A program made the position numbers and the translations under genes. This document shows positions 1 to 23,483 of a DNA stretch of 23,483 nt, piece by piece; positions within the stretch are counted from its first letter, which is position 1; every line of letters begins with the position of its first letter. The notes under the pieces are model-generated. The model was given only the letters and a program-made list of their open reading frames with translations, had not been told where the DNA came from and made no database searches. Source of the stretch: a virus; the UHGV virus genome UHGV-0227276; one strand, given 5' to 3'.

Positions 1-20
1 GAGGCACCGACGCAGATCAT
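1..20 (-). CDS. 5' end (about 6 codons) of the gene downstream of T, at the position of P2 tail gene U; continues beyond the window
   Basis: ATG at 20-18 on the minus strand overlaps the T stop codon as ATGA; too short to assess by sequence. Confidence 0.2.
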
Positions 21-2926
21 CATTCAGACGCAGCCAGGACAAAGTGCGCAGGATATTGCGCGGGACGTGGCACGCCAGCTTGATGAACGTGAACGCAGGC
101 TGCGGCAGCAACGCCCATCATTCCGGCAACAACGGCAGCCAGTGCAGCGGTATTTCTCCGGCTGGTCACATTTGCCGGGCCGTTAACAATTTCCGGCCCG
201 TTTTCACCGACGATGCCAAACTGCCCGCGCGGGATATACCCGCCGCTGTCATACATCCCCGCAAAGCCATATCCCCATGATGGAAAACCACCCGATGGCA
301 TCATCACTTTACCGTCTGCATTCACCGTCGCAGGTTGCTGACGCGTCACGCTTTCCGGCAGTTTTGCCTTTGCGGCCTCTTTACTGACAATGCCGAGCTT
401 CTCCAGCAACCAGGAAACGCCGGATTTCAGGGAGTCCAGCGGATGCATGACCATATTCAGCCCTTCCGCCAGTGCCTCCCCGAATCGCCGCCCCATTGCC
501 GCTGCGCTCTGCAGTTCGGCAGAGGTCGACTTAACGGGCGTCAGCAGATCAGTAAACCAGCCCCACAGCGCCTGCACTTTGTCGCCAATCCACTGGAACA
601 CGGGCTTAAGCGGTTCGAACGCTGCACTGATGGGACCTGCCGCCGCTTTGAATCCTTCCACCACGCCACCGAGAAATGCGGTGATAGGTTGCCAGTATTT
701 CCAGACAACCAGCGCCACGCCCGCCAGTGCAGTAACCACAAGACCTATCGGACTGAGCAGAGCACCTAACAGACCAGATATGGCATACAGGGCAACGCGC
801 AGCATCGCCAGCGAACCGGATGCCAGCACACGCAGCACCGTACCTGCGGCGGTCAGTCCACCGCGCAGTATCGCCAGAGGATTCATAAACATCACAGCAA
901 CAGCACGTAAACCGGATAATCCAGACCGCAAAAGTGCAACCGGCGCACCTGCTACAGTTTTCAGGACATTTCCCGTCAGTGATGCCGTGCGGCGCAAAGA
1001 CGACAACGGCGCAGTAAGTAAACCCGCAGCATTGCCCGATGAAGCAAGCCCGCGTCGCAGCAGTGCCAGTGGTGCGCCAGCCAGCCAGGACAACGCGTTG
1101 CTGGTTCGAGTTACTGCTGCCGTAACGGAAGGTAACGTTTTGATACCCAGCACAGAGAATCCCAGACGGATGACTGCCAGCGGCCCCAGCACTGCAGCCA
1201 GCGCCACCGCTAAGGTGCCGAGGCCCACTGTCACAGCAGCCACAACCGCTGCTACTTTCATCAGTGTGCCCGTCAGTTCCGGGTTAGCTTCCACCCAGCG
1301 GCGCAACGCCCCCGTGACGCTTTTCACCGTGTACAGAATATCCATCAGCGGCTGGCGCAGCGTTTCGCCCAGGCTGCTGAAGGTGTTCTGCGCTCCGGTT
1401 TTGACCAGCAACCACTGAGCAGAAAGTGAATCCTTGTTAATGTCGGATTCTTTCTGCATGGAGCCAAGCGCATCATTGCCCGCTGTCAGTTTTAACTGAC
1501 GCTGCAGTTCCGGCAGGTTGTTTGCCAGTTTCGCCGCGTCATCGCCAAACTCTTTACCAAACAACATAGTCATGGCAGACAGGCGCTTGTCCTGCGGCAG
1601 CGCGTTTACCTTCTCCAGCACGCGCTGGATGGTTCCCATCGCATCCTTCGTCATCTGCTTTTCAATCACTTCAGGATTGAGTTTCAGCAGATTCATCCCT
1701 TCAAAGAAACTCTTGCTTTGCATGGTGGCAATGGACAATTCACGCACCATCGCGTTTGCTGCACTGGCTGCAACCTCTGGCGCAGCGCCCAGTGTCAGGA
1801 AGGTGGAACCCAGCGCCGCCGCTTTACGATAATCCAGACGGTCAGCCACACCGCCCAGACGTTGCATCACATCAATGATGTCTGCCCCTTTCGACATGGC
1901 GTTATCATCCAGATAGTTCAGCGCATCACCGAGCTGTTCAATATTGCGGGTGGGGATTTTGTAGAGCTGGGCGATTTTCCCCAGACTTTCTGACAGTTCA
2001 TCCGCTGGCAGCTCAAAGGCTGTTGCCGCCTTTGCTGCCGTACTGGCGAAGGCCAGCAGGTCACGTTTCTGATCTTCCCAGCTGTCGTCAGGGTTTGCGA
2101 CGTTCATGCGCGCACCACCTTCAACCAGTGCAGCGAAGTCCACCGCACCGTTTTCCATCGGCAACTGTTCGCTGGCAGCCTTGATGGCATCCTGCATTTC
2201 ATAAAAACGTGCAGTGCGGTTGCCATTATCGTCACGCAGACCATTGACCTGCTTTGCCACACCTTTCATGGCATCTTCCATGCTGGTATAGCTTTTTACT
2301 GCCGCCATCACTGGTGCACCCATTGCCAGCCCTGCAGCCGTGGTGGTGGCTCCGGCACCTGCAATACGATCACGCACCTCCAGCGAACGGGCATAACTGG
2401 CACGCGCTGCATTCATCCTGCGCTGAGCTTCCCCCAGTCGCTTCAGCCGCGCCTCCTGTTTCGAAAGTTCCTGGTTATAACGTGATGTTTCACGGGCTAA
2501 ACGGGCAGTTGCTCCCGCATCGTCTTTCGCAGAAATTCCCGCCCGGTACAGTTCAGCACGCACAAGCGCCGTCTGCCGCTGCAGCTTTTTCTGGCGTTCT
2601 TCCAGGCGCTGAACAGCCAGCCGTTGACGGCCCAGAGCAACAACCTGACGTTGCGAAGGCGGCCCCATCGCTCCCAGTTCCTGACTGAGCAAATTTGCAC
2701 GCTGGCGGGCATAGTTCAGCCTGTCGCCTAATTTCTGATTTTCTGCCTGCAGCTTTCGGAAGCTGTCCAGACTGCTCCCGGCCTGATCAAGCTGCTTTAT
2801 TGCATCGCGGGATTTTTTGACAGCAGCAGCCAGTTCTCTTGAACTGGCCTGCGCAGATCGAAATGGGCGGGTGAGCTTGTCAACCGCATTAAGAATGACC
2901 TGCAGACGCAGGTTGTTATCACTCAT
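20..2926 (-). CDS. T: tail tape measure protein (P2 gpT-like), 968 aa
   Basis: Very long ORF directly downstream of E/E'; coiled-coil-like N-terminal half rich in A/Q/R/L, central hydrophobic Gly/Ala/Leu-rich stretches; position matches the P2 FI-FII-E-T-U-D operon. Confidence 0.9.
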   Translation of the reverse strand: MSDNNLRLQVILNAVDKLTRPFRSAQASSRELAAAVKKSRDAIKQLDQAGSSLDSFRKLQAENQKLGDRLNYARQRANLLSQELGAMGPPSQRQVVALGRQRLAVQRLEERQKKLQRQTALVRAELYRAGISAKDDAGATARLARETSRYNQELSKQEARLKRLGEAQRRMNAARASYARSLEVRDRIAGAGATTTAAGLAMGAPVMAAVKSYTSMEDAMKGVAKQVNGLRDDNGNRTARFYEMQDAIKAASEQLPMENGAVDFAALVEGGARMNVANPDDSWEDQKRDLLAFASTAAKAATAFELPADELSESLGKIAQLYKIPTRNIEQLGDALNYLDDNAMSKGADIIDVMQRLGGVADRLDYRKAAALGSTFLTLGAAPEVAASAANAMVRELSIATMQSKSFFEGMNLLKLNPEVIEKQMTKDAMGTIQRVLEKVNALPQDKRLSAMTMLFGKEFGDDAAKLANNLPELQRQLKLTAGNDALGSMQKESDINKDSLSAQWLLVKTGAQNTFSSLGETLRQPLMDILYTVKSVTGALRRWVEANPELTGTLMKVAAVVAAVTVGLGTLAVALAAVLGPLAVIRLGFSVLGIKTLPSVTAAVTRTSNALSWLAGAPLALLRRGLASSGNAAGLLTAPLSSLRRTASLTGNVLKTVAGAPVALLRSGLSGLRAVAVMFMNPLAILRGGLTAAGTVLRVLASGSLAMLRVALYAISGLLGALLSPIGLVVTALAGVALVVWKYWQPITAFLGGVVEGFKAAAGPISAAFEPLKPVFQWIGDKVQALWGWFTDLLTPVKSTSAELQSAAAMGRRFGEALAEGLNMVMHPLDSLKSGVSWLLEKLGIVSKEAAKAKLPESVTRQQPATVNADGKVMMPSGGFPSWGYGFAGMYDSGGYIPRGQFGIVGENGPEIVNGPANVTSRRNTAALAAVVAGMMGVAAAACVHVHQAGVPRPAQYPAHFVLAASE

Positions 2927-5241: not shown

Positions 5242-5751
5242 TTAAATTTCTGGTAGTTTGGGCCAGTTAATATCAGGGGCTGTGCTGATATCTATTGCTG
5301 CTACCACGTCGATATAGTCAAGAACGGAATCGAGCTTTACTGTTTCTTCCGCAGTTAATTTTCTTCCCGCCTGCAATTTTAGTTGAATCAGAACAATGGA
5401 AGACATGGCATCATCAATCAGTGACTGGCGTTGCAGTTCAGCCCCTTCCACTGCTGCGTTATGTTGCGCTTTGGTATCCGTCACCCATTTCTCACCATCC
5501 CACTTATCGTATGGTGTTAACGGAGCAATAGTGGTTGTCTTTTCAGGGTAATCTCCCGGCACTGTGATTTCTTTTGAGTCCCCCGTTTCGGTGTTATAGA
5601 CGATTTCACCGCGATGGTCTGGCACATATTCCCATGATCTCAAATCCAGAGTTCGACAAGACACATAACCTGACTTATATGAACCAGGAGCATCTAAACA
5701 CGCTCTGATTCCATCACCAACGCTACATACACGAGGGAGTATTGGTAACAC
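5242..5751 (-). CDS. G: tail fibre assembly protein (Tfa/gpG-like), 5'-rearranged: residues 18-169 are Tfa-like, the first 17 codons derive from an inverted segment
   Basis: C-terminal ...TAEETVKLDSVLDYIDVVAAIDISTAPDINWPKLPEI and central SWEYVPDHRGEIVYN resemble lambda Tfa as I recall it; codons 10-16 of the annotated N-terminus are encoded by a 20-bp inverted-repeat copy. Confidence 0.7.
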   Translation of the reverse strand: MLPILPRVCSVGDGIRACLDAPGSYKSGYVSCRTLDLRSWEYVPDHRGEIVYNTETGDSKEITVPGDYPEKTTTIAPLTPYDKWDGEKWVTDTKAQHNAAVEGAELQRQSLIDDAMSSIVLIQLKLQAGRKLTAEETVKLDSVLDYIDVVAAIDISTAPDINWPKLPEI

Positions 5752-5812
5752 AGGTGGGAGCGAAACCCGTCCACGAAATATTGCATTTAACTATATCGTG
5801 AGAGCTGCGTAA
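5723..5812 (+). other. displaced 3' end of tail fibre gene H (29 codons plus TAA), on the opposite strand to H
   Basis: Plus-strand frame continues from the repeat (LIPSPT) into LHTRGSIGNTGGSETRPRNIAFNYIVRAA and ends TAATG, overlapping the start of the Tfa N-terminal fragment. Confidence 0.55.
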
Positions 5813-5952
5813 TGGATAAAGCCGTATTAAATAGCGAACTTATTGCCACGAAGGCGGGGAATATTACCGTCTATAACTATGATGGTGAAACACGGGAATA
5901 TATTTCTGAATCAACTGAATATCTTGCTGTTGGCGTCGGTATTCCCGCACAT
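5812..5952 (+). pseudogene. detached 5' fragment (47 codons) of the tail fibre assembly gene, on the opposite strand to G
   Basis: MDKAVLNSELIATKAGNITVYNYDGETREYISESTEYLAVGVGIPAH resembles the Tfa N-terminus (lambda Tfa ...[32 protein letters not shown], from memory); joining it to G codon 18 onward restores an in-frame 200-aa Tfa. Confidence 0.6.
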
Positions 5953-7489
5953 TCGTTGGTGATGGAATCAGAGTCCCTCCGGAATCGGCAGCATCAAGCC
6001 CCCGGCCTTGCGTATATGCTTTTCTGAAGATTGCCGCCAGTTCCCATTCCTCTTTTGAATCATACCCATCGTTGGCTACAACCATATGGCGGTGTTTTTC
6101 CAGCATTCCAGCCTGAAGGCTCAATAAAGCACGCCCAGCATCAATACCACGCCCATCATCCCAGCCACGAATAAACTCACCACGTAAATCAGGCAATTTA
6201 TTTGTCGGATAAACCTTTGCCAGTTTGGGATATTCTTCAGCCGAAAAAGCCGCTCCGTTGCATTTCAGCCAGCCTGTCGGTGGAGTGGCAGAAGGCCACG
6301 GAACAGGGACACCAACAGGTAATGCAGAGCCATCCCCTAAACCAAGATAATCAAGAACGCCCTGTGCGCTGGGCCTGCTAAGAATGGTACGCCCAACACT
6401 TGTCAGTGCAGTTAAGGCAGCTCGATCTTCCCCTGTAAAATAAGGGAGTTTATCTTTTGATGTAGAAAGCCCTGCCAACGCCGTTAAAGTAGCATCCTTT
6501 GGCTGCTTCCCCGCAAGGGAGTTAGTTATTGTCGTGGCAAAGTTCGGATCATTCCCCAGCGCCGCTGCCAGTTCGTTCAGCGTATCCAGTGCCGCAGGTG
6601 CAGAACCCACCATTGCTGCAATTGCCGATTTCACAAAAGCGGTAGTGGCAATCTGTGTATTGTTGACCGACTGCGCCGCCGTGGGAGCTGTTGGCGTTCC
6701 GGTGAGTGCCGGACTCGACAGCGGCGCTTTTTGTGCCAGTGCATTGTTAATGGTGGTACTGAATTTCGGATCATTGTTAATGGCTGCGGCTATTTCTTTC
6801 AGCGTGTCCAGGGTGGCTGGCGCACCATTAATAAGAGCCGTCAGAGCCGCCTGAACAAACGCGGTGGTCGCAATCTGCGTGGTGTTATTCCCTGCTGCTG
6901 GCGTTGGCGCTTTGGGTGTCCCGGTAAACGTCGGACTTTCTTTGGGTGCATACTGTGAATGCGGGTCCGGTGCGGCAAGATGTTTTGCCATCAGGTCATC
7001 CACGTACACCTTCAGCTCCAGTACCTTATCATCCACATACTTGCGGGTTGCCAGCACGACGGCAGGGTCGATTTTCAGGGTGATATTGTCCGTGCTGCTG
7101 GTTATCAGCACCATGCGCACGGTCTGGGTACGTCCGCTGCCTTCAGCCAGTTGCGGCTTATAGCTTTCCGGGCAGTTTCCCACGGCAATCAATGCCCCGG
7201 ACTCATCAAACAGGCCCACTTCACGTATCCACCAACCGCCCTCGTTTTCAGGGATCACCTGTTCAGCAATAATCTGGCTGCTGTTCTGCGGGTCGATATA
7301 GAGCATATTCAGCGCAGCCCGGCGTTTCTCATTTACCAATGCTGTCTGCTTGGCGTCCGGCGTTGGCAATGTTCCGCCGCCATCGCCGACCGCCATATGG
7401 GTAATTTTTAAAGGCACACCGAGCGCGGCGGCGCTGGCAAGTTTCGCCGCGCCAATATCCGTCAGCAGGGTATAAAATTTTGTGCTCAT
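5864..7489 (-). CDS. H: tail fibre protein (P2 gpH-like), 541 aa; last 29 codons are antisense of the detached tfa fragment
   Basis: N-terminus MSTKFYTLLTDIGAAKLASAAALGVPLKITHMAVGDGGG; internal tandem repeats; C-terminal WLKCNGAAFSAEEYPKLA...LPDLRGEFIRGWDDGRG tail-fibre domain; start overlaps the I stop (ATGA). Confidence 0.85.
   Translation of the reverse strand: MSTKFYTLLTDIGAAKLASAAALGVPLKITHMAVGDGGGTLPTPDAKQTALVNEKRRAALNMLYIDPQNSSQIIAEQVIPENEGGWWIREVGLFDESGALIAVGNCPESYKPQLAEGSGRTQTVRMVLITSSTDNITLKIDPAVVLATRKYVDDKVLELKVYVDDLMAKHLAAPDPHSQYAPKESPTFTGTPKAPTPAAGNNTTQIATTAFVQAALTALINGAPATLDTLKEIAAAINNDPKFSTTINNALAQKAPLSSPALTGTPTAPTAAQSVNNTQIATTAFVKSAIAAMVGSAPAALDTLNELAAALGNDPNFATTITNSLAGKQPKDATLTALAGLSTSKDKLPYFTGEDRAALTALTSVGRTILSRPSAQGVLDYLGLGDGSALPVGVPVPWPSATPPTGWLKCNGAAFSAEEYPKLAKVYPTNKLPDLRGEFIRGWDDGRGIDAGRALLSLQAGMLEKHRHMVVANDGYDSKEEWELAAIFRKAYTQGRGLDAADSGGTLIPSPTNVREYRRQQQDIQLIQKYIPVFHHHSYRR
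6470..6934 (-). repeat. diverged tandem duplication of about 76 codons inside H
   Basis: PTFTGTPKAPTPAAGNNTTQIATTAFVQAALTALINGAPATLDTLKEIAAAINNDPKFSTT... is followed by PALTGTPTAPTAAQSVNNTQIATTAFVKSAIAAMVGSAPAALDTLNELAAALGNDPNFATT... Confidence 0.7.
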
Positions 7490-10701: not shown

Positions 10702-10739
10702 CAACATCACTGATGTAAATATATTACTATATAGAAAAC

Positions 10740-12842: not shown

Positions 12843-12845
12843 AAT

Positions 12846-13049
12846 TCAGTCCCATAGCTGGACGGTCTGTACGGTGGTGGTTGTCGGAATGTCCGGCAGC
12901 TCCACCTGCAGCCCGTGAGGTAAAAAGGGGCCGTATTCGGCAAGCCCCGGATTTGCCTTCAGTACCTGCTCCGTGACACCCTGCGTGCGCCCGTAATGAC
13001 GCCAGCAAAGTGCGTCCACCGTGTCATACTGATGCGCGCGCACTTTCAT
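12846..13049 (-). CDS. X: tail protein X (P2 gpX-like), 67 aa
   Basis: 67-aa ORF between L and the holin, same size and position as P2 X. Confidence 0.75.
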   Translation of the reverse strand: MKVRAHQYDTVDALCWRHYGRTQGVTEQVLKANPGLAEYGPFLPHGLQVELPDIPTTTTVQTVQLWD

Positions 13050-13576: not shown

Positions 13577-13608
13577 CCCGTGCCGCCCGTGCGCGGGGGC
13601 ACGTTCTG

Positions 13609-14259: not shown

Positions 14260-14262
14260 GAA

Positions 14263-15321
14263 TTACGCTCCGGTTTCTGCTGCTGCGGCGCTGAAGTCGC
14301 CAATCTGGATGTTTTCCACCAGTGCGGCGCAGCGGTAGTCCTCAACCACATAGGCTTCGTTAACGGATTCAAAGTTTTCAATCCGGTCACGTTTCGGGTT
14401 GTCGATAACTGAGCGGCGGCGGGTGTCTTCCTGCCAGTAGATGGACAGGTTATCCAGACGGGTGATCAGCAGTGCATTCGGCGGGAAGAACGGCGCACGC
14501 ACGGCCTGCAGGCCACCCATGCGTTTCTGACTGATGATCATATCGGCAGCCAGTTTTTCACTGTTTTCCTGCTCTTTGTTGACCAGCGGGAAATACTTGT
14601 CAGACAGCAGTTCACGACCGCAAATCACCACCAGATCGTCATCGTCCTGGTAGACCACATCGATAAGCTCATTGACGGCATCCATCACCACGGCGTCCAG
14701 GTTGGCATATTCGCCACCTTTCCCGACTTTCACCGCACCCGGTGTGGTTTCACCGCCCGTGGTGGTGCTGCCCATGACGTGATCCGGTGCATCTTCACGG
14801 ATTTTCTGCAGCCAGCCTTTGTTCACATCCTGCAGCAGCGGGTTTTCGCTACGGTTGGAGGTTTTCGCACGCTTCACGCCGTTAAAGCCGATCATGATGC
14901 GGTCCAGAGCCTGACGTTTCACGATGGCGTCACGGATGCGCACCTGGAAATCCTGAAACTTCGCCCACAGGTCCAGCTTCGCGTAGGTCAGCACCGTGTC
15001 AAAGTTGGTCTGCTCGCATTTATATTCCACATCGACCATCAGCGTCGGATCGACAGGTTCACGCTCTTTCGCGGTGGTGTCAGTGGTTCCGGCAATGGTG
15101 CTGCCAACTCCCAGCCCCAGCAGCTGACCGGACTGCTCAGTCACTGGCGTGACGTTAATCAGCGTCAGGAAAGCGGCGGACTGCTGGATCTGGTCTTCCA
15201 GCGTCTGCTGCACAGACGGCTCCACGGTGAACTTGCTGGACAGTTCTTCAACTGCCACACCGTTCAGACGCGCCAGCTGCTGCAGGTAAGCGTTAAAAGC
15301 AAAGCGGGTATTCTTCTTCAT
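14263..15321 (-). CDS. N: major capsid protein N (P2 gpN-like), 352 aa
   Basis: MKKNTRFAFNAYLQQLARLNGVAVEELSSKFTVEPSVQQ...; size and position match P2 gpN. Confidence 0.9.
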   Translation of the reverse strand: MKKNTRFAFNAYLQQLARLNGVAVEELSSKFTVEPSVQQTLEDQIQQSAAFLTLINVTPVTEQSGQLLGLGVGSTIAGTTDTTAKEREPVDPTLMVDVEYKCEQTNFDTVLTYAKLDLWAKFQDFQVRIRDAIVKRQALDRIMIGFNGVKRAKTSNRSENPLLQDVNKGWLQKIREDAPDHVMGSTTTGGETTPGAVKVGKGGEYANLDAVVMDAVNELIDVVYQDDDDLVVICGRELLSDKYFPLVNKEQENSEKLAADMIISQKRMGGLQAVRAPFFPPNALLITRLDNLSIYWQEDTRRRSVIDNPKRDRIENFESVNEAYVVEDYRCAALVENIQIGDFSAAAAETGA

Positions 15322-15337
15322 CGGGTTTTGTGCTCCA

Positions 15338-16171
15338 TCAGCAATTGGTCAGAGTGTCAGCGGGGGCGTTACCGCCTGTTGCACGCTGGCGGTAGTCCTG
15401 GCGACTGTCTTCATGACTCAGCTTGTCCACCAGTTCGTTAAAGGCGGTTTGCTGTGCCTGCAGGGCAGTCTCCAGCTCAGACAGGCGTTCTTCCTGCTCA
15501 GACAGGGATTTTTCGGTGCGTGCGCTCAGGTTCTGCTGCTCAGTGGCGACCAGCTCCACAGCCTTATGCACATCAGAGAACCGGGCGTCATCGGACTGCT
15601 CTTTTTTGGTAAACAGCGCCGTGACGCGGGCAAACAGGGACGGTTTGTCGTCCTGGATTTCTTCCAGTTCGATCACCGTTTCCTCTGCAGCGGTAAAGAG
15701 ATTGGCAGGATTCTGCTTGCGGTTTGCCAGCGGGTTATGGGCTGCACTGGCGCTGAATGTCAGCATTTCCGTACCCAGACTGGCAGGGTCATCAGTGGCA
15801 GCCAGGCCGACCAGATAGGCTTTGCCCGTATCAGCGAACTTCGGGCTGACTTCCATAGAGGTGAATAATTTCTGGCCTTTTTTCACCAGTTCCACCAGGG
15901 ACTCCGTTGGCTCAACGTCGGCATACAGCGCCATCTTGCCTGCCAGCGGACCTTCCGTGATTTCTTCAGCAAACAGCGCCGTCACCTTGCCGTAGCGGTT
16001 AAAGGTGCTGTCCGGCAGATAAGACTTGATGTGCTCAAGGTTAATCAGCGCGGTATACACCGCCGGGTTGTAGCTGGCTGCCATCTGTTCCAGCCATTCA
16101 CGCTGGATTTCGCGTCCGTCGGTGGTGGCACCTTCCACCCCGATGCGAAAACGCTTTGCTTTCACTGTCAT
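15338..16171 (-). CDS. O: capsid scaffolding protein O (P2 gpO-like), 277 aa
   Basis: MTVKAKRFRIGVEGATTDGREIQREWLEQMAASYNP...; acidic coiled-coil C-terminal half; first gene of the head operon, divergent from P. Confidence 0.85.
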   Translation of the reverse strand: MTVKAKRFRIGVEGATTDGREIQREWLEQMAASYNPAVYTALINLEHIKSYLPDSTFNRYGKVTALFAEEITEGPLAGKMALYADVEPTESLVELVKKGQKLFTSMEVSPKFADTGKAYLVGLAATDDPASLGTEMLTFSASAAHNPLANRKQNPANLFTAAEETVIELEEIQDDKPSLFARVTALFTKKEQSDDARFSDVHKAVELVATEQQNLSARTEKSLSEQEERLSELETALQAQQTAFNELVDKLSHEDSRQDYRQRATGGNAPADTLTNC

Positions 16172-16249
16172 GAGCCGTGCTCCGTTAGAAAAAACTTACT
16201 GGAGCCTTATGGTTGCGGTGATGGGGGCAGTGAAACAATGCGCGGTATT

Positions 16250-16267
16250 TGTACCGACAACCACACA
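16250..16267 (-). promoter_or_regulatory. candidate Ogr-type late-promoter site (TGT-N12-ACA) in the divergent O/P control region
   Basis: TGT accgacaaccac ACA centred about 87 bp upstream of the O start codon. Confidence 0.45.
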
Positions 16268-16313
16268 AACCGCAGGCGGGGAAAGCCTTCATTCAAGGCT
16301 GTAGGTTTGTGCC

Positions 16314-18080
16314 ATGAACACCACACTGACACCCGCAGATCTCGATCCCCGTCGGCAGGCCATGCTGCTGTACTTTCAGGGATACCGCGTAGCCCGCATT
16401 GCTGAAATGCTGGGCGAGAAAGTTGCAACCGTTCACAGCTGGAAAAAACGCGACAAGTGGGGTGACTATGGGCCGCTGGATCAGATGCAGCTCACCACCG
16501 CCGCACGCTACTGCCAGCTCATTATGAAGGAGCACAAAGAAGGGAAAGATTTCAAAGAGATTGACCTGCTGGCGCGCCAGTCGGAGCGCCATGCGCGGAT
16601 CGGCAAGTTTAACAATGGCGGCAACGAAGCCGACTTAAACCCTAACGTCGCCAACCGCAACAAAGGCCCGCGCCGTCAGCCGGAAAAGAACGTTTTCACC
16701 GATGAACAGATTGAGAAGCTGGAAGAAATCTTCCATTCCTCCATGTTCAACTACCAGCGCCACTGGTGGGAAGCCGGAAAAACCAACCGCATCCGCAACC
16801 TGCTGAAGTCACGCCAGATCGGCGCGACCTTCTATTTTGCCCGTGAAGCCCTGATTGACGCCCTGCTAACCGGGCGTAACCAGATTTTCCTTTCCGCCAG
16901 CAAGGCTCAGGCCCACGTCTTTAAGCAGTACATCATCGACTTCGCCAAAGAAGTGGAGGTGGAGCTGAAAGGCGATCCGATGGTGCTTCCTAACGGGGCC
17001 ACGCTGTACTTCCTCGGCACCAATGCCCGCACGGCCCAGAGTTACCACGGCAACCTGTATCTGGATGAATATTTCTGGATACCGAAATTCCAGGAGCTGC
17101 GCAAAGTGGCTTCCGGTATGGCTATTCACAAAAAATGGCGACAAACCTATTTTTCCACGCCATCCAGCCTGACACACAGTGCTTATCCGTTCTGGTCCGG
17201 TGCGCTGTTCAACCGAGGGCGCAACAAAGCCGATAAGGTGGACATCGACCTGTCCCACAGCAATCTGGCCCCCGGCCTGCTGTGCGCAGACGGGCAGTAC
17301 CGCCAGATAGTCACTGTGGAAGATGCGGTGCGCGGCGGCTGTAACCTGTTCGACCTCGACCAGTTGCGCATGGAGTACAGCCCGGACGAATACCAGAACC
17401 TGCTGATGTGTGAGTTCGTGGACGATCTCGCGTCTGTGTTCCCACTCAGCGAGCTGCAGGCGTGCATGGTGGACAGTTGGGAAGTCTGGACCGACTTTCA
17501 TGCACTGGCCCTGCGCCCGTTTGGCTGGCGCGAAGTGTGGATCGGATATGACCCGGCGAAAGGTACGCAGAACGGCGACAGCGCCGGATGCGTGGTGGTG
17601 GCGCCGCCAGCCGTGCCGGGCGGTAAGTTCCGCATTCTTGAGCGTCACCAGTGGCGCGGAATGGACTTCCGCGCCCAGGCTGACGCCATCAAAAAACTGA
17701 CCGAACAGTACAACGTGACCTATATCGGTATCGACTCAACCGGCGTTGGTCACGGGGTTTACGAGAACGTGAAAGCGTTTTTTCCTGCCGTCCGGGAGTT
17801 TGTCTACAACCCCAACGTTAAAAACGCCCTGGTACTCAAGGCCTACGACATTATCAGCCACCGCCGTCTGGAGTTTGACGCCGGACACACCGACATAGCG
17901 CAGTCCTTTATGGCAATCCGTCGCGCCACCACCGCCAGTGGCAACCGCCCGACCTATGAAGCCAGCCGCAGCGAAGAAGCCAGCCATGCCGATCTGGCAT
18001 GGGCAACAATGCACGCACTGTTTAACGAACCGCTGCAGGGCGAATCCGCCAATACCAGCAATATTGTGGAGATTTTTTGA
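16314..18080 (+). CDS. P: terminase large (ATPase) subunit P (P2 gpP-like), 588 aa
   Basis: MNTTLTPADLDPRRQAMLLYFQGYRVARIAEMLGE...; size matches P2 gpP; followed by the portal gene with ATGA overlap. Confidence 0.9.
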   Translation: MNTTLTPADLDPRRQAMLLYFQGYRVARIAEMLGEKVATVHSWKKRDKWGDYGPLDQMQLTTAARYCQLIMKEHKEGKDFKEIDLLARQSERHARIGKFNNGGNEADLNPNVANRNKGPRRQPEKNVFTDEQIEKLEEIFHSSMFNYQRHWWEAGKTNRIRNLLKSRQIGATFYFAREALIDALLTGRNQIFLSASKAQAHVFKQYIIDFAKEVEVELKGDPMVLPNGATLYFLGTNARTAQSYHGNLYLDEYFWIPKFQELRKVASGMAIHKKWRQTYFSTPSSLTHSAYPFWSGALFNRGRNKADKVDIDLSHSNLAPGLLCADGQYRQIVTVEDAVRGGCNLFDLDQLRMEYSPDEYQNLLMCEFVDDLASVFPLSELQACMVDSWEVWTDFHALALRPFGWREVWIGYDPAKGTQNGDSAGCVVVAPPAVPGGKFRILERHQWRGMDFRAQADAIKKLTEQYNVTYIGIDSTGVGHGVYENVKAFFPAVREFVYNPNVKNALVLKAYDIISHRRLEFDAGHTDIAQSFMAIRRATTASGNRPTYEASRSEEASHADLAWATMHALFNEPLQGESANTSNIVEIF

Positions 18081-19114
18081 TGGGAAAGAGTAAGAAGAAC
18101 CGCGCTGCGGCGACGAAACAGATCCAGCTTAAAAGTCAAACTACAGCCGAAGCATTCAGCTTCGGCGATCCCGTTCCTGTTCTGGACCGCCGAGAACTGC
18201 TGGATTATGTGGAATGCGTACAGATGGACCGCTGGTATGAGCCGCCCGTCAGCTTTGACGGACTGGCGCGCACCTTCCGCGCTGCCGTTCATCATAGTTC
18301 CCCGATTGCAGTAAAGTGCAACATTCTGACCAGCACCTACATCCCTCACCCGCTGCTCAGCCAGCAGGCTTTTTCGCGTTTTGTGCAGGACTATCTGGTA
18401 TTTGGTAACGCCTACCTGGAGAAACGCACGAACCGCTTCGGTGAAGTTATCGCCCTTGAACCTGCCTTGGCAAAATACACCCGACGCGGGTTAGACCTGG
18501 ATACCTACTGGTTTGTGCAATACGGTATGACCACGCAGCCATATCAGTTCACGAAAGGCAGCATCTTTCATCTGATGGAACCGGACATCAACCAGGAGAT
18601 CTACGGCCTGCCCGGTTATCTTTCTGCTATTCCATCCGCCCTGCTCAACGAGTCTGCCACGCTGTTCCGCCGCAAGTATTACATTAACGGCAGTCATGCA
18701 GGCTTCATCATGTATATGACCGACGCCGCGCAGAACCAGGAAGATGTGAACAACCTCCGCAACGCGATGAAAAGCGCCAAAGGCCCTGGCAACTTCCGCA
18801 ACCTGTTTATGTACTCGCCTAACGGCAAAAAGGACGGGCTTCAGATCATCCCGTTGTCAGAAGTCGCAGCGAAAGATGAATTTCTGAACATCAAGAACGT
18901 GAGCCGGGACGACATGATGGCTGCACACCGCGTACCGCCTCAGATGATGGGAATTTTGCCGAATAATGTTGGGGGGTTTGGGGATGTGGAGAAGGCAAGT
19001 CGGGTATTTGTTCGTAATGAATTAATACCTTTGCAAAAACGTTTCGAAGAATTAAATTTATGGCTAAAAAATAATATTATTACATTCAAAGAATATCAAC
19101 TATCCCTAGACTAA
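18077..19114 (+). CDS. Q: portal (capsid) protein Q (P2 gpQ-like), 345 aa; last ~30 codons AT-rich
   Basis: MMGKSKKNRAAATKQIQLKSQTTAEAFSFGDPVPVLDRRELLDYVE...; C-terminal LIPLQKRFEELNLWLKNNIITFKEYQLSLD uses AT-rich codons unlike the rest of the gene. Confidence 0.9.
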   Translation: MMGKSKKNRAAATKQIQLKSQTTAEAFSFGDPVPVLDRRELLDYVECVQMDRWYEPPVSFDGLARTFRAAVHHSSPIAVKCNILTSTYIPHPLLSQQAFSRFVQDYLVFGNAYLEKRTNRFGEVIALEPALAKYTRRGLDLDTYWFVQYGMTTQPYQFTKGSIFHLMEPDINQEIYGLPGYLSAIPSALLNESATLFRRKYYINGSHAGFIMYMTDAAQNQEDVNNLRNAMKSAKGPGNFRNLFMYSPNGKKDGLQIIPLSEVAAKDEFLNIKNVSRDDMMAAHRVPPQMMGILPNNVGGFGDVEKASRVFVRNELIPLQKRFEELNLWLKNNIITFKEYQLSLD

Positions 19115-19119
19115 TTAAT

Positions 19120-19140
19120 AACCACCTCTATGAGGTGGTT
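19120..19140. terminator. hairpin between convergent Q and cargo gene (possible bidirectional terminator)
   Basis: AACCACCTC-tat-GAGGTGGTT, a 9-bp stem directly after the Q stop codon. Confidence 0.4.
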
Positions 19141-19161
19141 AACAAGAATAAACCTAATTAA

Positions 19162-20547
19162 TTACTCATCTACTCTGATTTTTTGTTTTTTATTATTTTG
19201 AGTTAAGACATTTATGGTAATAGATGTATACGGATGAAAGTCAGGCACTATACTTTTAACCTCTCCATTTTCAAGAAAATGATGTGCTATTGAAGGAAAT
19301 AAATCAGGATCTACAGGATATTTAGCATTAGGATTATGATACATATTTAAACCTTCTGCCCATGTTTCTGTAATATCGCCTTCTTTCACTTCAAAACTAA
19401 ATGCTGCTGGATATAATGCCTCTGGGTCATGATCATGGCAGTAACCACTCCTAAATAATCTAAGGTCACTTCTTCCAAAACCAGCCAGTTTTCCCATCCG
19501 ATTAAACTTCGATATAGTACCACTATTAGAACTAAGGACGGCCGAAATATTTTCAGACTCATCCAAGAAGAAAAAGCCTGAAGGAATTTCCTTTTTCTCA
19601 AATTGATGCGATATAATTTTCTTAGTTGCTAAACTGTAACATCCATCTTCAGATTTAACATGCTCATAGCGAATACCATAAAGATACTGCCAAAGTGCAC
19701 TATGGGACCAAATCATAGAGTTTGGTTCATGAAAATCAGCAATTGCGAAAATTAAAGGATTCCCCTTAACATGTTCTAGATCCCAGTATCGAGTTTTCTT
19801 TTTCAGTTTAGAATAGAGAGAACTTCCAAATTTAATCGGCATATAATTCTCTATTTTCTCTAGCAATTCTTCCTTACTTTTAGGTTCAGATAGCATTTCA
19901 GATGATTGATTAATATCATTCCCTGTTGGATTAACCGTTACAGCTTCAATGCAAATAGTATTACCATACTTACGTGCCACATAATCAGGGGCATTAAACT
20001 GCCTATCTAGCCAAAAGTGTTCCTCTCGTAAATATGCGAAAAGATATAACTCCCATAGCCGGGCATCAAAACCTGTTGTCTGAAACTGCTCTATAAAATT
20101 CCCGTCGACATCCTCAAAATGATTCATCATTTCCTTGATTATCCCTGTTGCAGGCGACCAGTTCGCATATTTACCAAATAATGAAAAATGATGATGAAGT
20201 TTATCTGGTGTAACTATAGGTGTGAATAAATCCATTGCTTTATAAGTTTCATCACCTTGTGGAAATACTTTTACGTTTAATTTAGTATGCTTCCGCATTA
20301 ATTTCTTTAGTTTTGCTCGTGCAGAATTCATTTCTGAAACACTAGTAAATAGGTCAATACATCTATATCTCCCACTTAAGTCTCTTGCTAAAACAATACC
20401 GCTATAATCTTCATCAATTTGATCCAATAATAGTGCCCCTAGCAGGAACTCTCTCGGACTACAGTACCACTCAAACTCATAGCCTAAAAGTTCAGTATTT
20501 GGCATTCTGGTCCAATCAACAAAAGCATTAAACCTCTCTTTACTCAT
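19162..20547 (-). CDS. hypothetical 461-aa cargo protein, AT-rich, no motif recognised; candidate accessory/defense gene
   Basis: Long uninterrupted ORF in AT-rich DNA between Q and the cos-like site; no Walker A or other motif recognisable by eye. Confidence 0.6.
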   Translation of the reverse strand: MSKERFNAFVDWTRMPNTELLGYEFEWYCSPREFLLGALLLDQIDEDYSGIVLARDLSGRYRCIDLFTSVSEMNSARAKLKKLMRKHTKLNVKVFPQGDETYKAMDLFTPIVTPDKLHHHFSLFGKYANWSPATGIIKEMMNHFEDVDGNFIEQFQTTGFDARLWELYLFAYLREEHFWLDRQFNAPDYVARKYGNTICIEAVTVNPTGNDINQSSEMLSEPKSKEELLEKIENYMPIKFGSSLYSKLKKKTRYWDLEHVKGNPLIFAIADFHEPNSMIWSHSALWQYLYGIRYEHVKSEDGCYSLATKKIISHQFEKKEIPSGFFFLDESENISAVLSSNSGTISKFNRMGKLAGFGRSDLRLFRSGYCHDHDPEALYPAAFSFEVKEGDITETWAEGLNMYHNPNAKYPVDPDLFPSIAHHFLENGEVKSIVPDFHPYTSITINVLTQNNKKQKIRVDE

Positions 20548-20634
20548 TTTTTTTATATCAAGAAAGCGTTAGCTCTGTAGTGCATGTCTATGCCGCATGA
20601 GATCGCATGATCGTTTGAGGATCGTTTTTGCTAA

Positions 20635-20659
20635 GGCCCGCCAGAACTGGCGGGCTTTT
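20635..20659 (+). terminator. rho-independent terminator-like hairpin inside the repeat-bounded segment
   Basis: GGCCCGCC-agaact-GGCGGGC followed by TTTT on the plus strand. Confidence 0.45.
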
Positions 20660-20704
20660 GCGTAGATCATGCAGGTGCATGAAAACCACTACATAAAGCG
20701 GGCA

Positions 20705-20723
20705 GGCGTGGCGGGGATACGAG
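20705..20723 (+). other. cos-like motif (resembles the 19-nt cohesive end of 186/P2), in inverted polarity relative to Q/P
   Basis: GGCGTGGCGGGGA... matches the first 13 nt of the 186 cohesive end as I recall it (GGCGTGGCGGGGAAAGCAT; P2 GGCGAGGCGGGGAAAGCAC); located between A and Q where P2-like cos lies. Confidence 0.4.
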
Positions 20724-20749
20724 CGCGCGTATTTGGTCGTTACTTAGCT

Positions 20750-20824
20750 TTTTTTTATCAATAGATTAAGCTAACTTAAGTCTTTTTAGGAAAAAATATT
20801 TTTTCGTGATGAGGTAGAAAGATG
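20750..20824 (+). promoter_or_regulatory. AT-rich promoter-like region with GAGG Shine-Dalgarno and ATG (20822), currently pointing away from the cargo gene
   Basis: AT-rich tract then GAGGTAGAAAG-ATG, reading in frame into the right-hand repeat copy (MSFLDIKKMSKERFNAFVD...) and ending after 41 codons. Confidence 0.35.
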
Positions 20825-20940
20825 TCTTTTCTTGATATAAAAAAAATGAGTAAAGAGAGGTTTAATGCTTTTGTTGATTCAAGGGCTCGTTGTTCAACCT
20901 TGCTGACGCCAGAAGCAAGTTCAGACGCCAGCAACGTTTC

Positions 20941-21174
20941 TTAATGCAGCCAGCTGTCGTCTTCCCACACCTTCTGCATAATTTTCATCACTTGTTTTCT
21001 TTCTTCGTCCAGTTGCAGTCCGGTTAGTTCCACACCGTTAGAGCTACCTTTGCGAATGCGAATTACCGTTTTGGGATACAGGGGGCGCAGATTGCGGTAA
21101 AGCTCGGATTCAAGGGCGTCCAGGGTAGACTGGCTAATCTTCTGCTCTTTATCGATCATTATTTCAATGCGCAT
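20941..21174 (-). CDS. DinI-family protein (DNA-damage-inducible protein I-like), 77 aa
   Basis: MRIEIMIDKEQKISQSTLDALESELYRNLRPLYP...IMQKVWEDDSW follows the DinI pattern (E. coli DinI MRIEVTIAKTSPLPAGAIDALAGELSRR...ILQETWESADDW, from memory); GAGGTGA Shine-Dalgarno 5 nt upstream. Confidence 0.8.
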   Translation of the reverse strand: MRIEIMIDKEQKISQSTLDALESELYRNLRPLYPKTVIRIRKGSSNGVELTGLQLDEERKQVMKIMQKVWEDDSWLH

Positions 21175-21184
21175 AAAAGTCACC

Positions 21185-21373
21185 TCAGCTGATGACATCC
21201 ATTGAGCGGTTGTATTCGTGGGTTCTGATTTTTGCCATGAGTTCATCAGTCAATTCAGAAACCCACTGCAGAGCCAGCCCCTTCTCTTCATCACTACACT
21301 CACTAGCCGCTACAAGCTTAAGAAAAAAATCAATGCGCTGGAGCTTCAAAGACTCCAAAAAATAGTCCTGCAT
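21185..21373 (-). CDS. hypothetical 62-aa protein, first gene of the LexA-box operon (possible Tum-like antirepressor part)
   Basis: GGAGGAAAG Shine-Dalgarno then ATG (MQDYFLESLKLQRIDFF...); ends 10 bp before the DinI-like start. Confidence 0.45.
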   Translation of the reverse strand: MQDYFLESLKLQRIDFFLKLVAASECSDEEKGLALQWVSELTDELMAKIRTHEYNRSMDVIS

Positions 21374-21416
21374 CTTTCCTCCTATGACACCACACGCAAT
21401 GCTGTATGCATAACCA

Positions 21417-21432
21417 CTGTTTATATTTACAG
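21417..21432 (-). promoter_or_regulatory. LexA (SOS) box
   Basis: CTGTTTATATTTACAG fits CTGT-N8-ACAG with an AT-rich core, 44 nt upstream of the 62-aa gene start. Confidence 0.6.
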
Positions 21433-21526
21433 TATATAATAATCTTACTGATGTAAAACGATTTTTTACGTTCATCAGCCTGATATGCCTGGTATTATTA
21501 AGAGCACGAATTGTTAACCCGCGTAA

Positions 21527-23137
21527 TTAATACAGGTTCCGCCACTGATCATCTTCCTGCAAACGCTGGTTCCGATAGAAGATACGCAGGCCTGCTCCTG
21601 ACGGAATACTGCCTCCGCGAAGGAGTAAATCGACCTCTTTCTCGCTGCCATCAAATCCTCTGGACTTCAGCTCATACACGAGCTGCAGTCGCTGATGGTC
21701 TGTAATTCGCTGTTTGTAGTCTTTACGCCGTTTCGGTTTCACCAGGCGTAACCTTGCTGCCAGTTCCCGGCGCTCTTTTTTGCTCATACTGTGCAGGTAA
21801 TCGTGCAACTCCTTGTCATCCATGCTGGTAATGTCCGTTCTGGGGTCCCCATCAGCTGATTTATCTTTCTCCTGTTGGTTCAAATTTTCAGCAAGGGGAC
21901 AGTTATTGCCACGAGTCCAAGGGGCGCAAGCGCCCTGGTCGGCTGCCGCCTCCTGAACGTCAACGGCTTTACGAACCATTTTCCACTTCACTGCATGAGT
22001 GCAGATCTTGCCCTCTGCAATGGGTGACCAGATGCCATAAATACGAATACCGTGATCGCCATAGGCGGTCGGCTCTTCGTTGATTTCATAAGCGGTTCTG
22101 ATGAGGTGATATTTACGGGGAACCAGTACGCCGCCCTGCTTCATGATGTAGGTGGCAAAGCAACCAGCATCAGCTGCAGCCAGAATGGCATCAAGGCGCG
22201 GGTTATCCAGTACCGGCGCACCTGCTTTTTTGTCACCCTGTTGCCTTGCCGCCTGACCAGCCAGCAATCGCAGTTCACGGTAAGCCTGACGCCCCGGAAT
22301 GCCAAAGAAGCGGAATTGCTGAACACGATGCAGAGACGCCCAGGCATTAACGTATTCAGCGTTATCACGCAGAGATTTACCCGTTTCCTTGCTGATCTCG
22401 CCAGCCAGACCACGCCCGTCAATGTTCTTACTGATATATTTCGCGATGTAGCTTGTCGGCGTTCCTTTACGCGGGTTAATCAACTCAGACTTAAAGCGCG
22501 GCCCAGTGTTATTGCCCAGCTCCTCGCGGTCTTCACGGATGGCAAACTTACGCAGTAATGCAGTGATGGCGCGGCGGTCTTTTTTGCGCATAAAACACAA
22601 CAGGTGCCAGTGAACTGTACCGTCATGATGCGGCTCAGCCACCCGCACGCCATACCAGCGCAATCCGGCTTTGTGCATCGCCTTACGAAATGCAGCAAAC
22701 ATGCCGACCAGATAGTCGCTGCTTTGTCTTACCGTCGAGTTTGTCCAGGTCGGGTTGGGTCTGCCGTTATTGAGCGTGGAATGGAAACGCGACGGACAGG
22801 TGATAGTGTAGAAAACGGCGCAGTCACTGCGCATTTCCGCGATAAGCTCCAGACCTTTAACACAGGCCATCATCTCATTGCGGCGATGCGCCGGGTTGCT
22901 GCTGCTGGCGTTTACCACATCTTCCATATCCAGCGTGTCGCCGTCTTCGTTCACCAGTTCATGAGAACGGAAAAACTCCAGCGACTTACGGCGCTGCTCA
23001 CGTTTATGCATCACGGCTTCATAGCTGACATAGGGGGATGCTTTTTTGCTGACCAGGCAGACAGCACGCAACTGCTCTTCCCGCCATTCGCAACGCATCT
23101 TCCATAATTTCCGATACCACCAGTCGGCACACAACAT
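21527..23137 (-). CDS. A: replication initiation protein A (rolling-circle initiator, P2 gpA-like), 5'-truncated in this arrangement (536 aa ORF)
   Basis: VHWHLLCF (HUH-like) and YIAKY paired-tyrosine motif; reading frame closes 16 codons upstream of the annotated start, exactly at the edge of a 52-bp inverted repeat. Confidence 0.85.
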
Positions 23138-23384
23138 ACGCGTGCCTTGATGCAGCTTGTGGTGATTTGTATGCCACCGATGACGTTAAGCCAGAAGAAA
23201 TCCGCAAGACATGGGAAAAGGTGGCAGCGGAAACCCTGCGTCTGGATGTCATCCCGCCTGCGTTTGAGCAACTCCGTCGGAAAAGAAACCGCCGTAAACC
23301 CGTGCCCTATGAACTCATTCCGGGTTCGCTGGCGCGTATGTTGTGTGCCGACTGGTGGTATCGGAAATTATGGAAGATGCGTTG
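23091..23384. repeat. 52-bp perfect inverted repeats (23091-23142 and 23333-23384) flanking a 190-bp segment inside the 5' part of gene A
   Basis: Exact reverse-complement match CGCGTATGTTGTGTGCCGACTGGTGGTATCGGAAATTATGGAAGATGCGTTG; both copies encode [15 protein letters not shown] on opposite strands. Confidence 0.9.
23143..23332 (+). other. inverted fragment of the A coding region (63 codons) lying on the opposite strand to A
   Basis: Plus frame ...[52 protein letters not shown] runs in frame into the repeat-encoded [15 protein letters not shown]. Confidence 0.45.
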
Positions 23385-23483
23385 ACTCATTTCAGGCAGA
23401 ATCAGCAGGCCGTCCAGCCCTACATGGCTTGCCATAAAACGAAAAGATGCAGATAGCTGGCTGTCGCGTACATGCTCCAGTCG

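What the first reader, a model, noticed from the sequence alone, without database searches (positions are those of the whole stretch)
20514..20879. Promoter and cos-like segment bounded by 52-bp inverted repeats, pointing away from the cargo gene
The cargo gene start codon and first 11 codons are duplicated in inverted orientation 262 bp away. The enclosed segment carries an AT-rich promoter-like tract, a GAGG Shine-Dalgarno and an ATG that currently read into the decoy copy (41-codon ORF), i.e. an OFF state. Flipping the segment would place promoter, SD and an in-frame ATG (MSFLDIKKMSKERF...) ahead of the cargo gene. This could be an invertible ON/OFF switch or the scar of an inversion-duplication event.
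Basis: seen in the sequence. Interest (0 to 1): 0.75.

Follow-up and report, generated by a model that had tools for sequence, protein, structure and literature searches.

The report
Private inversion scar, not a switch
The 52-bp inverted repeat is real, but it comes from a one-off flip-and-copy rearrangement (one of four in this window, absent from every related genome) that cuts a known phage-defence gene off from its promoter; it is most likely an artefact or a dead-prophage lesion, not an evolved on/off switch.

Summary
In detail: perfect 52-nt inverted arms (20514-20565 / 20828-20879) enclose 262 bp. That segment carries a terminator hairpin, a P2-type cos site and the AT-rich leader, Shine-Dalgarno and first start codon of the cargo gene, all pointing away from the gene. 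The cargo is PD-T7-1, a known anti-phage gene, in the known P2 defence hotspot between gpA and portal gpQ. All related genomes examined (24 complete E. coli genomes by match geometry, four of them read directly, plus 9 cargo-bearing contigs) have the opposite ("ON") orientation. The four read have one copy of the 52-mer and 4 bp where the window has the second arm. So the window is not one state of a conserved invertible element. It equals the native sequence with a 314-bp block inverted, 52 bp duplicated and 4 bp lost.

The same window holds three more lesions of this type (1-102, 5703-5956, 23143-23384). One also has an exactly 52-nt arm, and each breaks a phage gene. Otherwise the window is base-for-base identical to its closest relatives. 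Junctions are blunt, no invertase is annotated in the relatives, and neither the novel junctions nor the rearranged proteins occur in any public collection searched. Whether the scars are in the organism or only in the sequence cannot be settled without reads.

The parts
19162..20547 (-). Cargo gene, a PD-T7-1 anti-phage defence protein. Here it is a 461-aa ORF starting at the internal Met9; the native annotated product is 469 aa (WP_000008839.1).
   Evidence: PADLOC PDLC04073 E=1e-195; no Pfam domain; identical to residues 9-469 of the SCU-484 protein; 32-44% GC against about 50-55% for the phage backbone.
20514..20565 (.). Left 52-nt arm: native sequence in its native place (18 nt of leader, Met9 ATG, 10 further codons and 1 nt).
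   Evidence: It is present once, at the same place, in S88, ExPEC XM and SCU-484.
20566..20827 (.). 262-bp interior, 100% identical to the relatives but in reverse orientation.
   Evidence: Its reverse complement directly follows the single 52-mer in S88. Window 20566-20879 equals the minus strand of SCU-484 23400-23713, 314/314.
20630..20661 (+). GC-rich hairpin (GCCCGCCAG/CTGGCGGGC) followed by TTTT. In relatives it faces the gpA-DinI operon as its terminator; here it is flipped.
   Evidence: Inverted repeat I3 and sequence. The terminator role is inferred, and the consensus scan did not list it.
20705..20723 (+). P2-type 19-nt cohesive-end sequence (cos), pointing toward gpA instead of toward portal gene Q.
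   Evidence: Alignment to the annotated P2 cosR/cosL junction; conserved block 20566-20729 in 82 phage records; opposite strand in all native loci.
20730..20827 (+). AT-rich native leader of PD-T7-1, with GAGG at 20811-20814 and the native first ATG at 20822; it now points away from the gene.
   Evidence: Sequence; composition; contiguous with the gene in all relatives. The promoter is inferred only.
20828..20879 (.). Right 52-nt arm: an ectopic inverted copy, absent from relatives, which have CTCG (4 bp) here.
20822..20944 (+). 40-aa chimeric ORF: 19 native N-terminal residues of PD-T7-1 fused to out-of-context sequence.
20941..21246 (-). DinI-like gene, the last gene of the early operon and the native right flank.
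   Evidence: Pfam PF06183 E=1.3e-22; annotated as DinI-like in relatives.
23091..23384 (.). Sister lesion D: 52-nt perfect arms 23091-23142 / 23333-23384 around a 190-bp inverted interior inside gpA. About 51 bp are lost and gpA is split at residue 268/269.
5703..5973 (.). Sister lesion B: 254-bp inverted block with 20-nt arms 5703-5722 / 5954-5973. It destroys the tail-fibre C-terminus and the tail-fibre-assembly N-terminus.
1..102 (.). Sister lesion A: inverted block in the tape-measure gene, cut by the window start. The tape-measure C-terminus is replaced.

Best explanation
The repeat is the footprint of a single inversion-with-duplication event private to this sequence, not an evolved invertible element. 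The native locus is the P2-like defence hotspot in this order: portal gene Q, then PD-T7-1 on the opposite strand with its AT-rich leader, then cos, then the terminator of the gpA-DinI early operon. In the window, the 314-bp block made of the first 52 bp of the PD-T7-1 start region plus the leader, cos and terminator was re-inserted backwards. The original 52 bp stayed in place, which creates the two arms, and 4 bp were lost at the far breakpoint.

Consequences (inferred): PD-T7-1 loses its leader, SD and first 8 codons, so it is OFF unless read through from the early operon. The leader now drives only a 40-codon chimeric ORF and antisense transcription into the DinI/gpA operon. cos and the terminator are reversed.

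Three further lesions of the same design hit the tape measure, the tail fibre and gpA in the same window, while the rest of the sequence is identical to close relatives. I therefore judge the whole set most likely to be non-biological: introduced during library preparation, assembly or later handling of the sequence (about 60%). Otherwise they are genuine break-and-rejoin lesions in a dead prophage (about 30%). Either way the arms exist by accident. At most they could allow rare RecA-dependent re-inversion. The confidence given (0.88) is for 'accidental scar, not an evolved switch'; the split between artefact and real lesion is much less certain.
For: 1. All relatives with this cargo have the opposite orientation. 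This holds for 24 complete E. coli genomes by match geometry (two pieces, 88% coverage, span 48 bp shorter than the query), of which S88, ExPEC XM and SCU-484 were read directly. It also holds for 9 of 10 further contigs (the tenth ends before the junction) and 8 IMG/VR contigs. In the genomes read there is one copy of the 52-mer and CTCG where the window has the second arm.
2. SCU-484 and the draft GCA_014752185.1 are otherwise identical to the window. SCU-484 differs by two SNPs and one homopolymer indel. The draft differs by one SNP over the 19.9 kb it covers. Yet the window carries four 240-314-bp inversions.
3. Two of the events have arms of exactly 52 nt.
4. All seven junctions have only 0-3 bp of microhomology, and no motif is shared among the breakpoints.
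5. Every event truncates a gene.
6. The only two private SNPs lie 36 and 27 bp from junctions, P about 6e-4 by chance.
7. The novel junctions and the rearranged-state gpA, tail-fibre and tape-measure proteins are absent from every collection searched. Native controls are found.
8. The annotations of the near-identical prophages list no invertase, only the phage integrase.
Against: I cannot name a standard artefact that produces this exact pattern. De Bruijn misassembly would need shared k-mers at the junctions. Long-read fold-back errors affect contig ends. The variable loss at the second breakpoint (0, 4 and about 51 bp) and the SNPs beside the junctions look like untidy real repair rather than a tidy manipulation. 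No reads are available. If real, the structure could still behave as a low-frequency switch, because 52 bp of perfect homology is enough for RecA (established knowledge, not tested here).
Confidence: 0.88

Rival explanations
1. These are genuine chromosomal lesions (a sub-case of the best explanation, given separately because it differs on whether the DNA exists). The prophage suffered several paired breaks, some staggered by 52 or 20 nt. The excised pieces were filled in and rejoined backwards by an end-joining route, leaving inverted duplications on one side and small deletions on the other. The result is a decaying, non-inducible prophage with its defence gene silenced.
For: The structure fits the staggered-break model of inversion breakpoints exactly: the duplicated arm stays at one breakpoint, its inverted copy lies at the other, and there is loss at the second break. 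The private SNPs sit next to junctions, as expected from error-prone fill-in. Deletion sizes are irregular (0, 4 and about 51 bp).
Against: E. coli lacks classical end joining (established knowledge). Four such events against at most two substitutions and one indel is an extreme ratio. Two identical 52-nt staggers need a defined enzyme, and nothing points to one: no shared motif was found. Nothing similar appears in 5,426 complete E. coli genomes at this locus.
Confidence: 0.28
2. It is a functional phase-variation switch. The 52-bp arms let the segment flip, by RecA or an unidentified recombinase, toggling PD-T7-1 between OFF (as here) and ON, and reversing cos at the same time.
For: The anatomy is right. 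Flipping restores 314 bp of exactly native upstream sequence, including the SD and the full 469-aa reading frame. 52 bp of perfect homology exceeds the minimum for RecA recombination (established knowledge). Defence genes are costly, and phase-variable control of them is known elsewhere (my knowledge, not tested here).
Against: No relative has a second arm. The diagnostic two-armed ON junction has 0 hits in IMG/VR and the JGI metagenomes. No invertase is annotated in the near-identical prophages. The arms are made of coding sequence copied at the moment of the rearrangement. Identical lesions in gpA, the tail fibre and the tape measure show a non-specific process.
Confidence: 0.05
3. The repeat is a chance resemblance, or a normal conserved feature of cos regions in P2-like phages.
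For: None beyond the fact that cos regions contain short symmetric elements.
Against: The chance expectation is about 1e-23. The second arm is absent from the relatives read directly and from the 82 phage records that share the cos block.
Confidence: 0.01

Closest known systems
Promoter invertons such as E. coli fimS (a 314-bp element with 9-bp inverted repeats, flipped by FimB/FimE) and Bacteroides invertible promoters
   Same: A roughly 300-bp segment carrying the expression signals of the adjacent gene lies between inverted repeats, and its orientation decides ON or OFF.
   Different: There is no dedicated recombinase. The arms are 52 bp of duplicated coding sequence rather than short recombinase sites. 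The second arm is absent from all relatives. Only one orientation of the two-armed form exists anywhere. Sister lesions sit inside genes. (The fimS details are from my own knowledge.)
Inversions with inverted duplications at their breakpoints (the staggered-break model described for Drosophila and Anopheles inversions)
   Same: The anatomy is identical: a unique sequence at one breakpoint is found duplicated and inverted at the other, junctions are blunt, and there is a small loss at the second break.
   Different: That model is described in eukaryotes with end joining, for kb-to-Mb inversions. Here there are four events of about 250 bp in one E. coli prophage. (The comparison is from my own knowledge; no paper was read for it.)
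P2-like prophage defence hotspot between gpA and gpQ next to cos (Rousset et al. 2022, PMC9122126; Vassallo et al. 2022, PMC9519451), with cargo PD-T7-1
   Same: The underlying native locus is a textbook member: position, adjacency to cos, AT-rich cargo, and a PD-T7-1 HMM match at E=1e-195.
   Different: In P2 itself, old and tin sit on the gpA side of cos. Here the cargo sits on the Q side. In this window the leader, cos and terminator block is inverted.
Inverted chimeras from strand-displacement amplification, or other sequence and assembly artefacts
   Same: These are local strand switches over a few hundred bp, private to one sequence, several per 20 kb, with poor consensus near the junctions.
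   Different: Such chimeras normally appear as single strand switches in a minority of reads and often show microhomology. Here the switches come in matched pairs and are fixed in the consensus. (From my own knowledge.)
Gin/Cin/Hin invertible segments of Mu, P1 and Salmonella
   Same: DNA inversion in a phage context. One sister lesion even lies at the junction of the tail-fibre and tail-fibre-assembly genes.
   Different: Those are kb-sized segments with roughly 26-bp crossover sites and a serine invertase plus an enhancer. None of these features is present.

Membership tests
Site-specific invertible promoter (inverton / phase-variation switch) | Inverted repeats flank the segment | tested here: met
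   52-nt perfect arms.
Site-specific invertible promoter (inverton / phase-variation switch) | A promoter lies inside the segment | tested here: inconclusive
   The segment holds the AT-rich native leader with SD and start codon. No sigma-70 consensus hit was found, and the best lenient match is 7 of 12.
Site-specific invertible promoter (inverton / phase-variation switch) | A dedicated recombinase is encoded nearby | tested here: not met
   The annotations of the near-identical prophages in SCU-484 and S88 list no invertase, only the phage integrase beyond the window. The window's own ORFs were not scanned individually.
Site-specific invertible promoter (inverton / phase-variation switch) | Both arms are conserved in related genomes | tested here: not met
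   The relatives read directly (S88, ExPEC XM, SCU-484) have one arm, with 4 bp CTCG at the other site. The other 21 complete genomes give the same match geometry. No cargo-bearing contig holds either novel junction.
Site-specific invertible promoter (inverton / phase-variation switch) | Both orientations of the two-armed element are observed | tested here: not met
   The novel junctions J1 and J2 and the predicted two-armed ON junction each have 0 hits: J1 in IMG/VR and JGI metagenomes, J2 in the GTDB species representatives, the ON junction in IMG/VR and JGI metagenomes. The native junction was found as a control. Read-level heterogeneity is not testable here.
P2-like defence hotspot #1 carrying PD-T7-1 | Cargo lies between replication gene A and portal gene Q, next to cos | tested here: met
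   Gene order P, Q, cargo, cos, DinI, A. cos was verified. The definition comes from PMC9122126 and PMC9519451.
P2-like defence hotspot #1 carrying PD-T7-1 | The protein matches the PD-T7-1 model | tested here: met
   PDLC04073, E=1e-195, residues 1-449 against profile positions 4-449 of 452.
P2-type cos site | Similarity to the 19-nt cohesive end and its flank, at the expected position | tested here: met
   14 of 19 identical to P2 cosL, plus the conserved flank AGGTGCAT.AAAACC...AAGCGGGC. The block is conserved in 82 P2-like phage records. Cleavage itself is not testable here.
Inversion with breakpoint inverted duplication (structural lesion or artefact) | The interior is identical to relatives but reversed; a unique flank is duplicated in inverted orientation at the far breakpoint; no pre-existing repeat | tested here: met
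   Exact reconstruction against SCU-484 and GCA_014752185.1. The same design is seen at three more sites.
Inversion with breakpoint inverted duplication (structural lesion or artefact) | Physically present in the organism's DNA (rather than only in the sequence file) | not testable with these tools
   No reads are available and the source is unknown. The rearranged-state proteins are absent from the public gene index.

The most novel reading that the evidence does not exclude
The four lesions are real and record an undescribed mutational process in E. coli prophages: paired, staggered cuts (twice exactly 52 nt apart) whose roughly 250-bp fragments are rejoined backwards without homology. As a by-product, one of them has created a de novo, RecA-reversible inverton that silences the PD-T7-1 defence gene and reverses the phage packaging site.
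Probability: 0.06. Interest if true: 0.65.

Novelty: not a real feature. Interest (0 to 1): 0.12.

Why it matters
If the switch reading had held, it would have been the first phase-variable control of a defence gene in the P2 hotspot, coupled to reversal of the packaging site. It does not hold, and the practical value lies elsewhere. First, the native locus is an ordinary, already described PD-T7-1 cargo in the P2 defence hotspot. Second, this window contains at least four private inversions that break genes. Any other finding drawn from this window (truncated gpA, odd tail-fibre C-terminus, short ORFs at junctions, other inverted repeats) should be read as a consequence of these rearrangements, not as biology. 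Third, long perfect inverted repeats made of coding sequence should be checked against close relatives before being called invertons.

Tried and rejected
- **Source sequence:** I looked for the window's own source among 5,426 complete E. coli genomes, INPHARED phages, IMG/VR, JGI metagenomes, the GTDB species representatives and the exact-protein index. No record holds the window's arrangement.
- **Flipped two-armed state:** I searched for the junction this state would carry. It has 0 hits.
- **Site-specific enzyme:** I compared all breakpoints with each other and with the P2 ori nick site. There is no shared motif. One 7-nt resemblance (CGCCTCG at the 4-bp deletion) is not repeated at any other breakpoint, so I treat it as coincidence.
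- **Template switching or homologous recombination:** Rejected as the origin, because the junctions have 0-3 bp of microhomology and relatives have no pre-existing repeat.
- **De Bruijn-graph misassembly** (52 = k-1): Considered and set aside, because the novel junctions share no k-mers with the native sequence. Reads containing them would have to exist.
- **SCU-484 as the exact parent:** Rejected, because the window has A8 where SCU-484 has A9. The draft GCA_014752185.1 matches that position.
- **Consensus promoter in the AT-rich tract:** None was found.
- **Pfam domain in the cargo protein:** None was found.

Full report
**1. The observation**

The window contains a perfect 52-nt inverted repeat, 20514-20565 and 20828-20879, with 262 nt between the arms. 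About 1e-23 such pairs would be expected by chance in 23.5 kb.

The left arm overlaps the start of a 461-aa minus-strand ORF (19162-20547). It covers 18 nt of leader, the ATG, ten further codons and 1 nt.

The enclosed segment has three parts, from left to right:
- a GC-rich hairpin followed by TTTT (20630-20661);
- the sequence GGCGTGGCGGGGATACGAG (20705-20723);
- a 22-40% GC tract ending in GAGG (20811-20814) and ATG (20822).

That ATG opens a 40-aa ORF, MSFLDIKKMSKERFNAFVD followed by 21 unrelated residues.

**2. What the parts are**

The neighbours are terminase gpP (16314-18080), portal gpQ (18077-19114), a DinI-like gene (Pfam PF06183, E=1.3e-22) and replication endonuclease gpA. This is a P2-like prophage.

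The 19-mer and about 32 nt of its flank align to the junction of the annotated right and left cohesive ends of phage P2. The block 20566-20729 is conserved in 82 P2-like phage records, with conservation ending about 5 bp past the 19-mer. So the cos call is right.

The cargo protein matches the PADLOC model of PD-T7-1 at E=1e-195 and has no Pfam domain. PD-T7-1 is a single-gene defence system found by functional selection (PMC9519451). The position between gpA and gpQ next to cos is the known P2 defence hotspot (PMC9122126, PMC9519451).

The promoter is only inferred. No sigma-70 consensus match passed the scan, and the best lenient match is 7 of 12.

**3. Comparison with relatives**

Twenty-four complete E. 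coli genomes carry this cargo at this site. In all of them the match splits into two collinear pieces covering 88% of the query, across a span 48 bp shorter than the query. Reading S88 and ExPEC XM directly gives this order:
- the 52-mer occurs once;
- the reverse complement of the 262-bp interior follows it directly;
- then come 4 bp (CTCG);
- then the right flank.

Against SCU-484 the relation is exact. The window equals native[..23451], plus the reverse complement of native[23400..23713], plus native[23718..].

Nine of ten further contigs that encode the same protein have the native join and neither novel junction; the tenth ends before the junction. Eight IMG/VR contigs also hold the native join.

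In the native arrangement:
- the leader, SD and first ATG read into the gene (annotated as 469 aa, MSFLDIKKMSKERF...);
- cos points toward Q, as in P2;
- the hairpin's T-run faces the gpA-DinI operon.

Flipping the window's interior rebuilds exactly that arrangement. The window is not the other state of a conserved invertible element, because the relatives have no second arm.

**4. It is one of four**

A whole-window scan found a second perfect inverted repeat, again exactly 52 nt (23091-23142 / 23333-23384), enclosing 190 nt inside gpA.

Base-by-base comparison with SCU-484 shows four strand-flipped blocks and almost nothing else. The only other differences are two SNPs and one A8/A9 homopolymer difference.

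| Event | Window block | Arms | Loss at far breakpoint | Damage |
|---|---|---|---|---|
| A | 1-102 (cut by window start) | not visible | not visible | tape-measure C-terminus replaced |
| B | 5703-5956 | 20 nt | 0 bp | tail-fibre C-terminus and tail-fibre-assembly N-terminus destroyed |
| C | 20566-20879 (the finding) | 52 nt | 4 bp | PD-T7-1 leader detached; cos and terminator flipped |
| D | 23143-23384 | 52 nt | about 51 bp | gpA split at residue 268/269 |

The draft genome GCA_014752185.1 is identical to the window over 3589-23483, including the homopolymer. The only exceptions are events B, C and D and one SNP.

All seven novel junctions have only 0-3 bp of microhomology, and the breakpoints share no motif. 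The two private SNPs (positions 66 and 5983) lie 36 and 27 bp from junctions, which has a chance probability of about 6e-4.

**5. Is the arrangement found anywhere else?**

No. The evidence is as follows:
- The two novel junctions of event C have no exact match: J1 in IMG/VR and the JGI metagenomes, J2 in the GTDB species representatives.
- The junction that a flipped two-armed element would carry has none in IMG/VR or the JGI metagenomes.
- No phage record and no complete E. coli genome covers more than the collinear blocks.
- The proteins that exist only in the rearranged state are not in the 153-billion-gene index. These are gpA (536 aa), the tail fibre with an altered C-terminus, and the 968-aa tape measure.
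- As a control, an intact lineage-specific protein is found in about 20 contigs, and the four places shown all have native gene sizes.

**6. Explanation**

The arms are a by-product of one inversion-with-duplication event. They are not recombination sites that evolved to be flipped.

Several origins are excluded:
- Site-specific or homologous recombination would need pre-existing repeats, and the relatives have none.
- Template switching would need microhomology, and the junctions have almost none.
- Chance is excluded by the 1e-23 expectation.

The design fits a staggered break that is filled in and rejoined backwards. One native arm stays in place, its inverted copy lies at the far breakpoint, and there is a small loss at that breakpoint.

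Four such events against one or two substitutions is an extreme ratio. All of them break genes, two share an identical 52-nt duplication, E. coli lacks classical end joining, and public data show no trace of them. Together these point more to a technical origin (library, assembly or later handling of the sequence) than to biology. I put this at about 60% technical, 30% real lesions in a dead prophage, and 5% a switch in any functional sense.

I could not name a standard artefact that gives exactly this pattern. The irregular deletions and the SNPs beside the junctions are what untidy real repair would look like. Only reads can settle this.

**7. Consequences if the DNA is real (inferred, not tested)**

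- PD-T7-1 is separated from its leader, SD and first eight codons. It could be expressed only from Met9, by read-through from the early operon across the now-reversed terminator.
- The leader drives a 40-codon chimeric ORF and antisense transcription into the DinI/gpA operon.
- cos is reversed but complete.
- The prophage cannot replicate or build tails.
- The 52-bp arms could support rare RecA-dependent re-inversion. That would restore a native 314-bp upstream region and leave a 52-bp decoy beyond the terminator. This makes it an accidental inverton, not a regulated one.

**8. Verdict**

The underlying locus (PD-T7-1 in the P2 hotspot next to cos) is already known. Interest is low. The main value is the warning that this window carries at least four private rearrangements, which will generate spurious findings elsewhere in it.

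Noticed in passing
window 23091-23384: A second perfect inverted repeat of exactly 52 nt (23091-23142 / 23333-23384) encloses a 190-bp inverted piece of gpA. About 51 bp are lost and gpA is split at residue 268/269, so the peptide [15 protein letters not shown] is encoded on both strands.
   Followed up: yes
window 5703-5973: A 254-bp inverted block with 20-nt arms lies at the junction of the tail-fibre and tail-fibre-assembly genes. The tail fibre keeps its 541-aa length by coincidence but has a foreign C-terminus. A private SNP at 5983 lies 27 bp from the junction.
   Followed up: yes
window 1-102: The window starts inside another inverted block (the reverse complement of SCU-484 prophage sequence about 100-200 bp away) within the tape-measure gene. 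A private SNP lies at position 66. The left boundary is outside the window.
   Followed up: partly
window 9970-10701 (+): An AT-rich 243-aa ORF sits on the opposite strand between baseplate gene V and tail gene S. It has no PADLOC hit. S88 carries an AIPR-family (abortive-infection-like) gene at the same spot, and SCU-484 has this ORF frameshifted by an A9 versus A8 homopolymer. This looks like another variable cargo slot of this prophage family.
   Followed up: partly
window 19162-20547 (-): The PD-T7-1 homologue also matches the PADLOC PD-T7-5 model over residues 105-428 (E=1.4e-56), which suggests the two named systems share a core domain. It has no Pfam domain.
   Followed up: no
window 20566-20729; P2 NC_001895 ends: Conservation of the terminator and cos block among P2-like phages stops about 5 bp beyond the 19-nt cohesive end. 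The variable cargo here therefore begins right at cos on the portal (Q) side, whereas P2 itself carries old and tin on the gpA side of cos.
   Followed up: partly
window 20879|20880 (native ...AACGCCTCG|CAAGG): The breakpoint beside the 4-bp deletion shares 7 nt (CGCCTCG, cut at the same position) with the annotated P2 ori nick context GCGCCTCG|GAGTCC. No other breakpoint shows it, so it is probably coincidence.
   Followed up: partly
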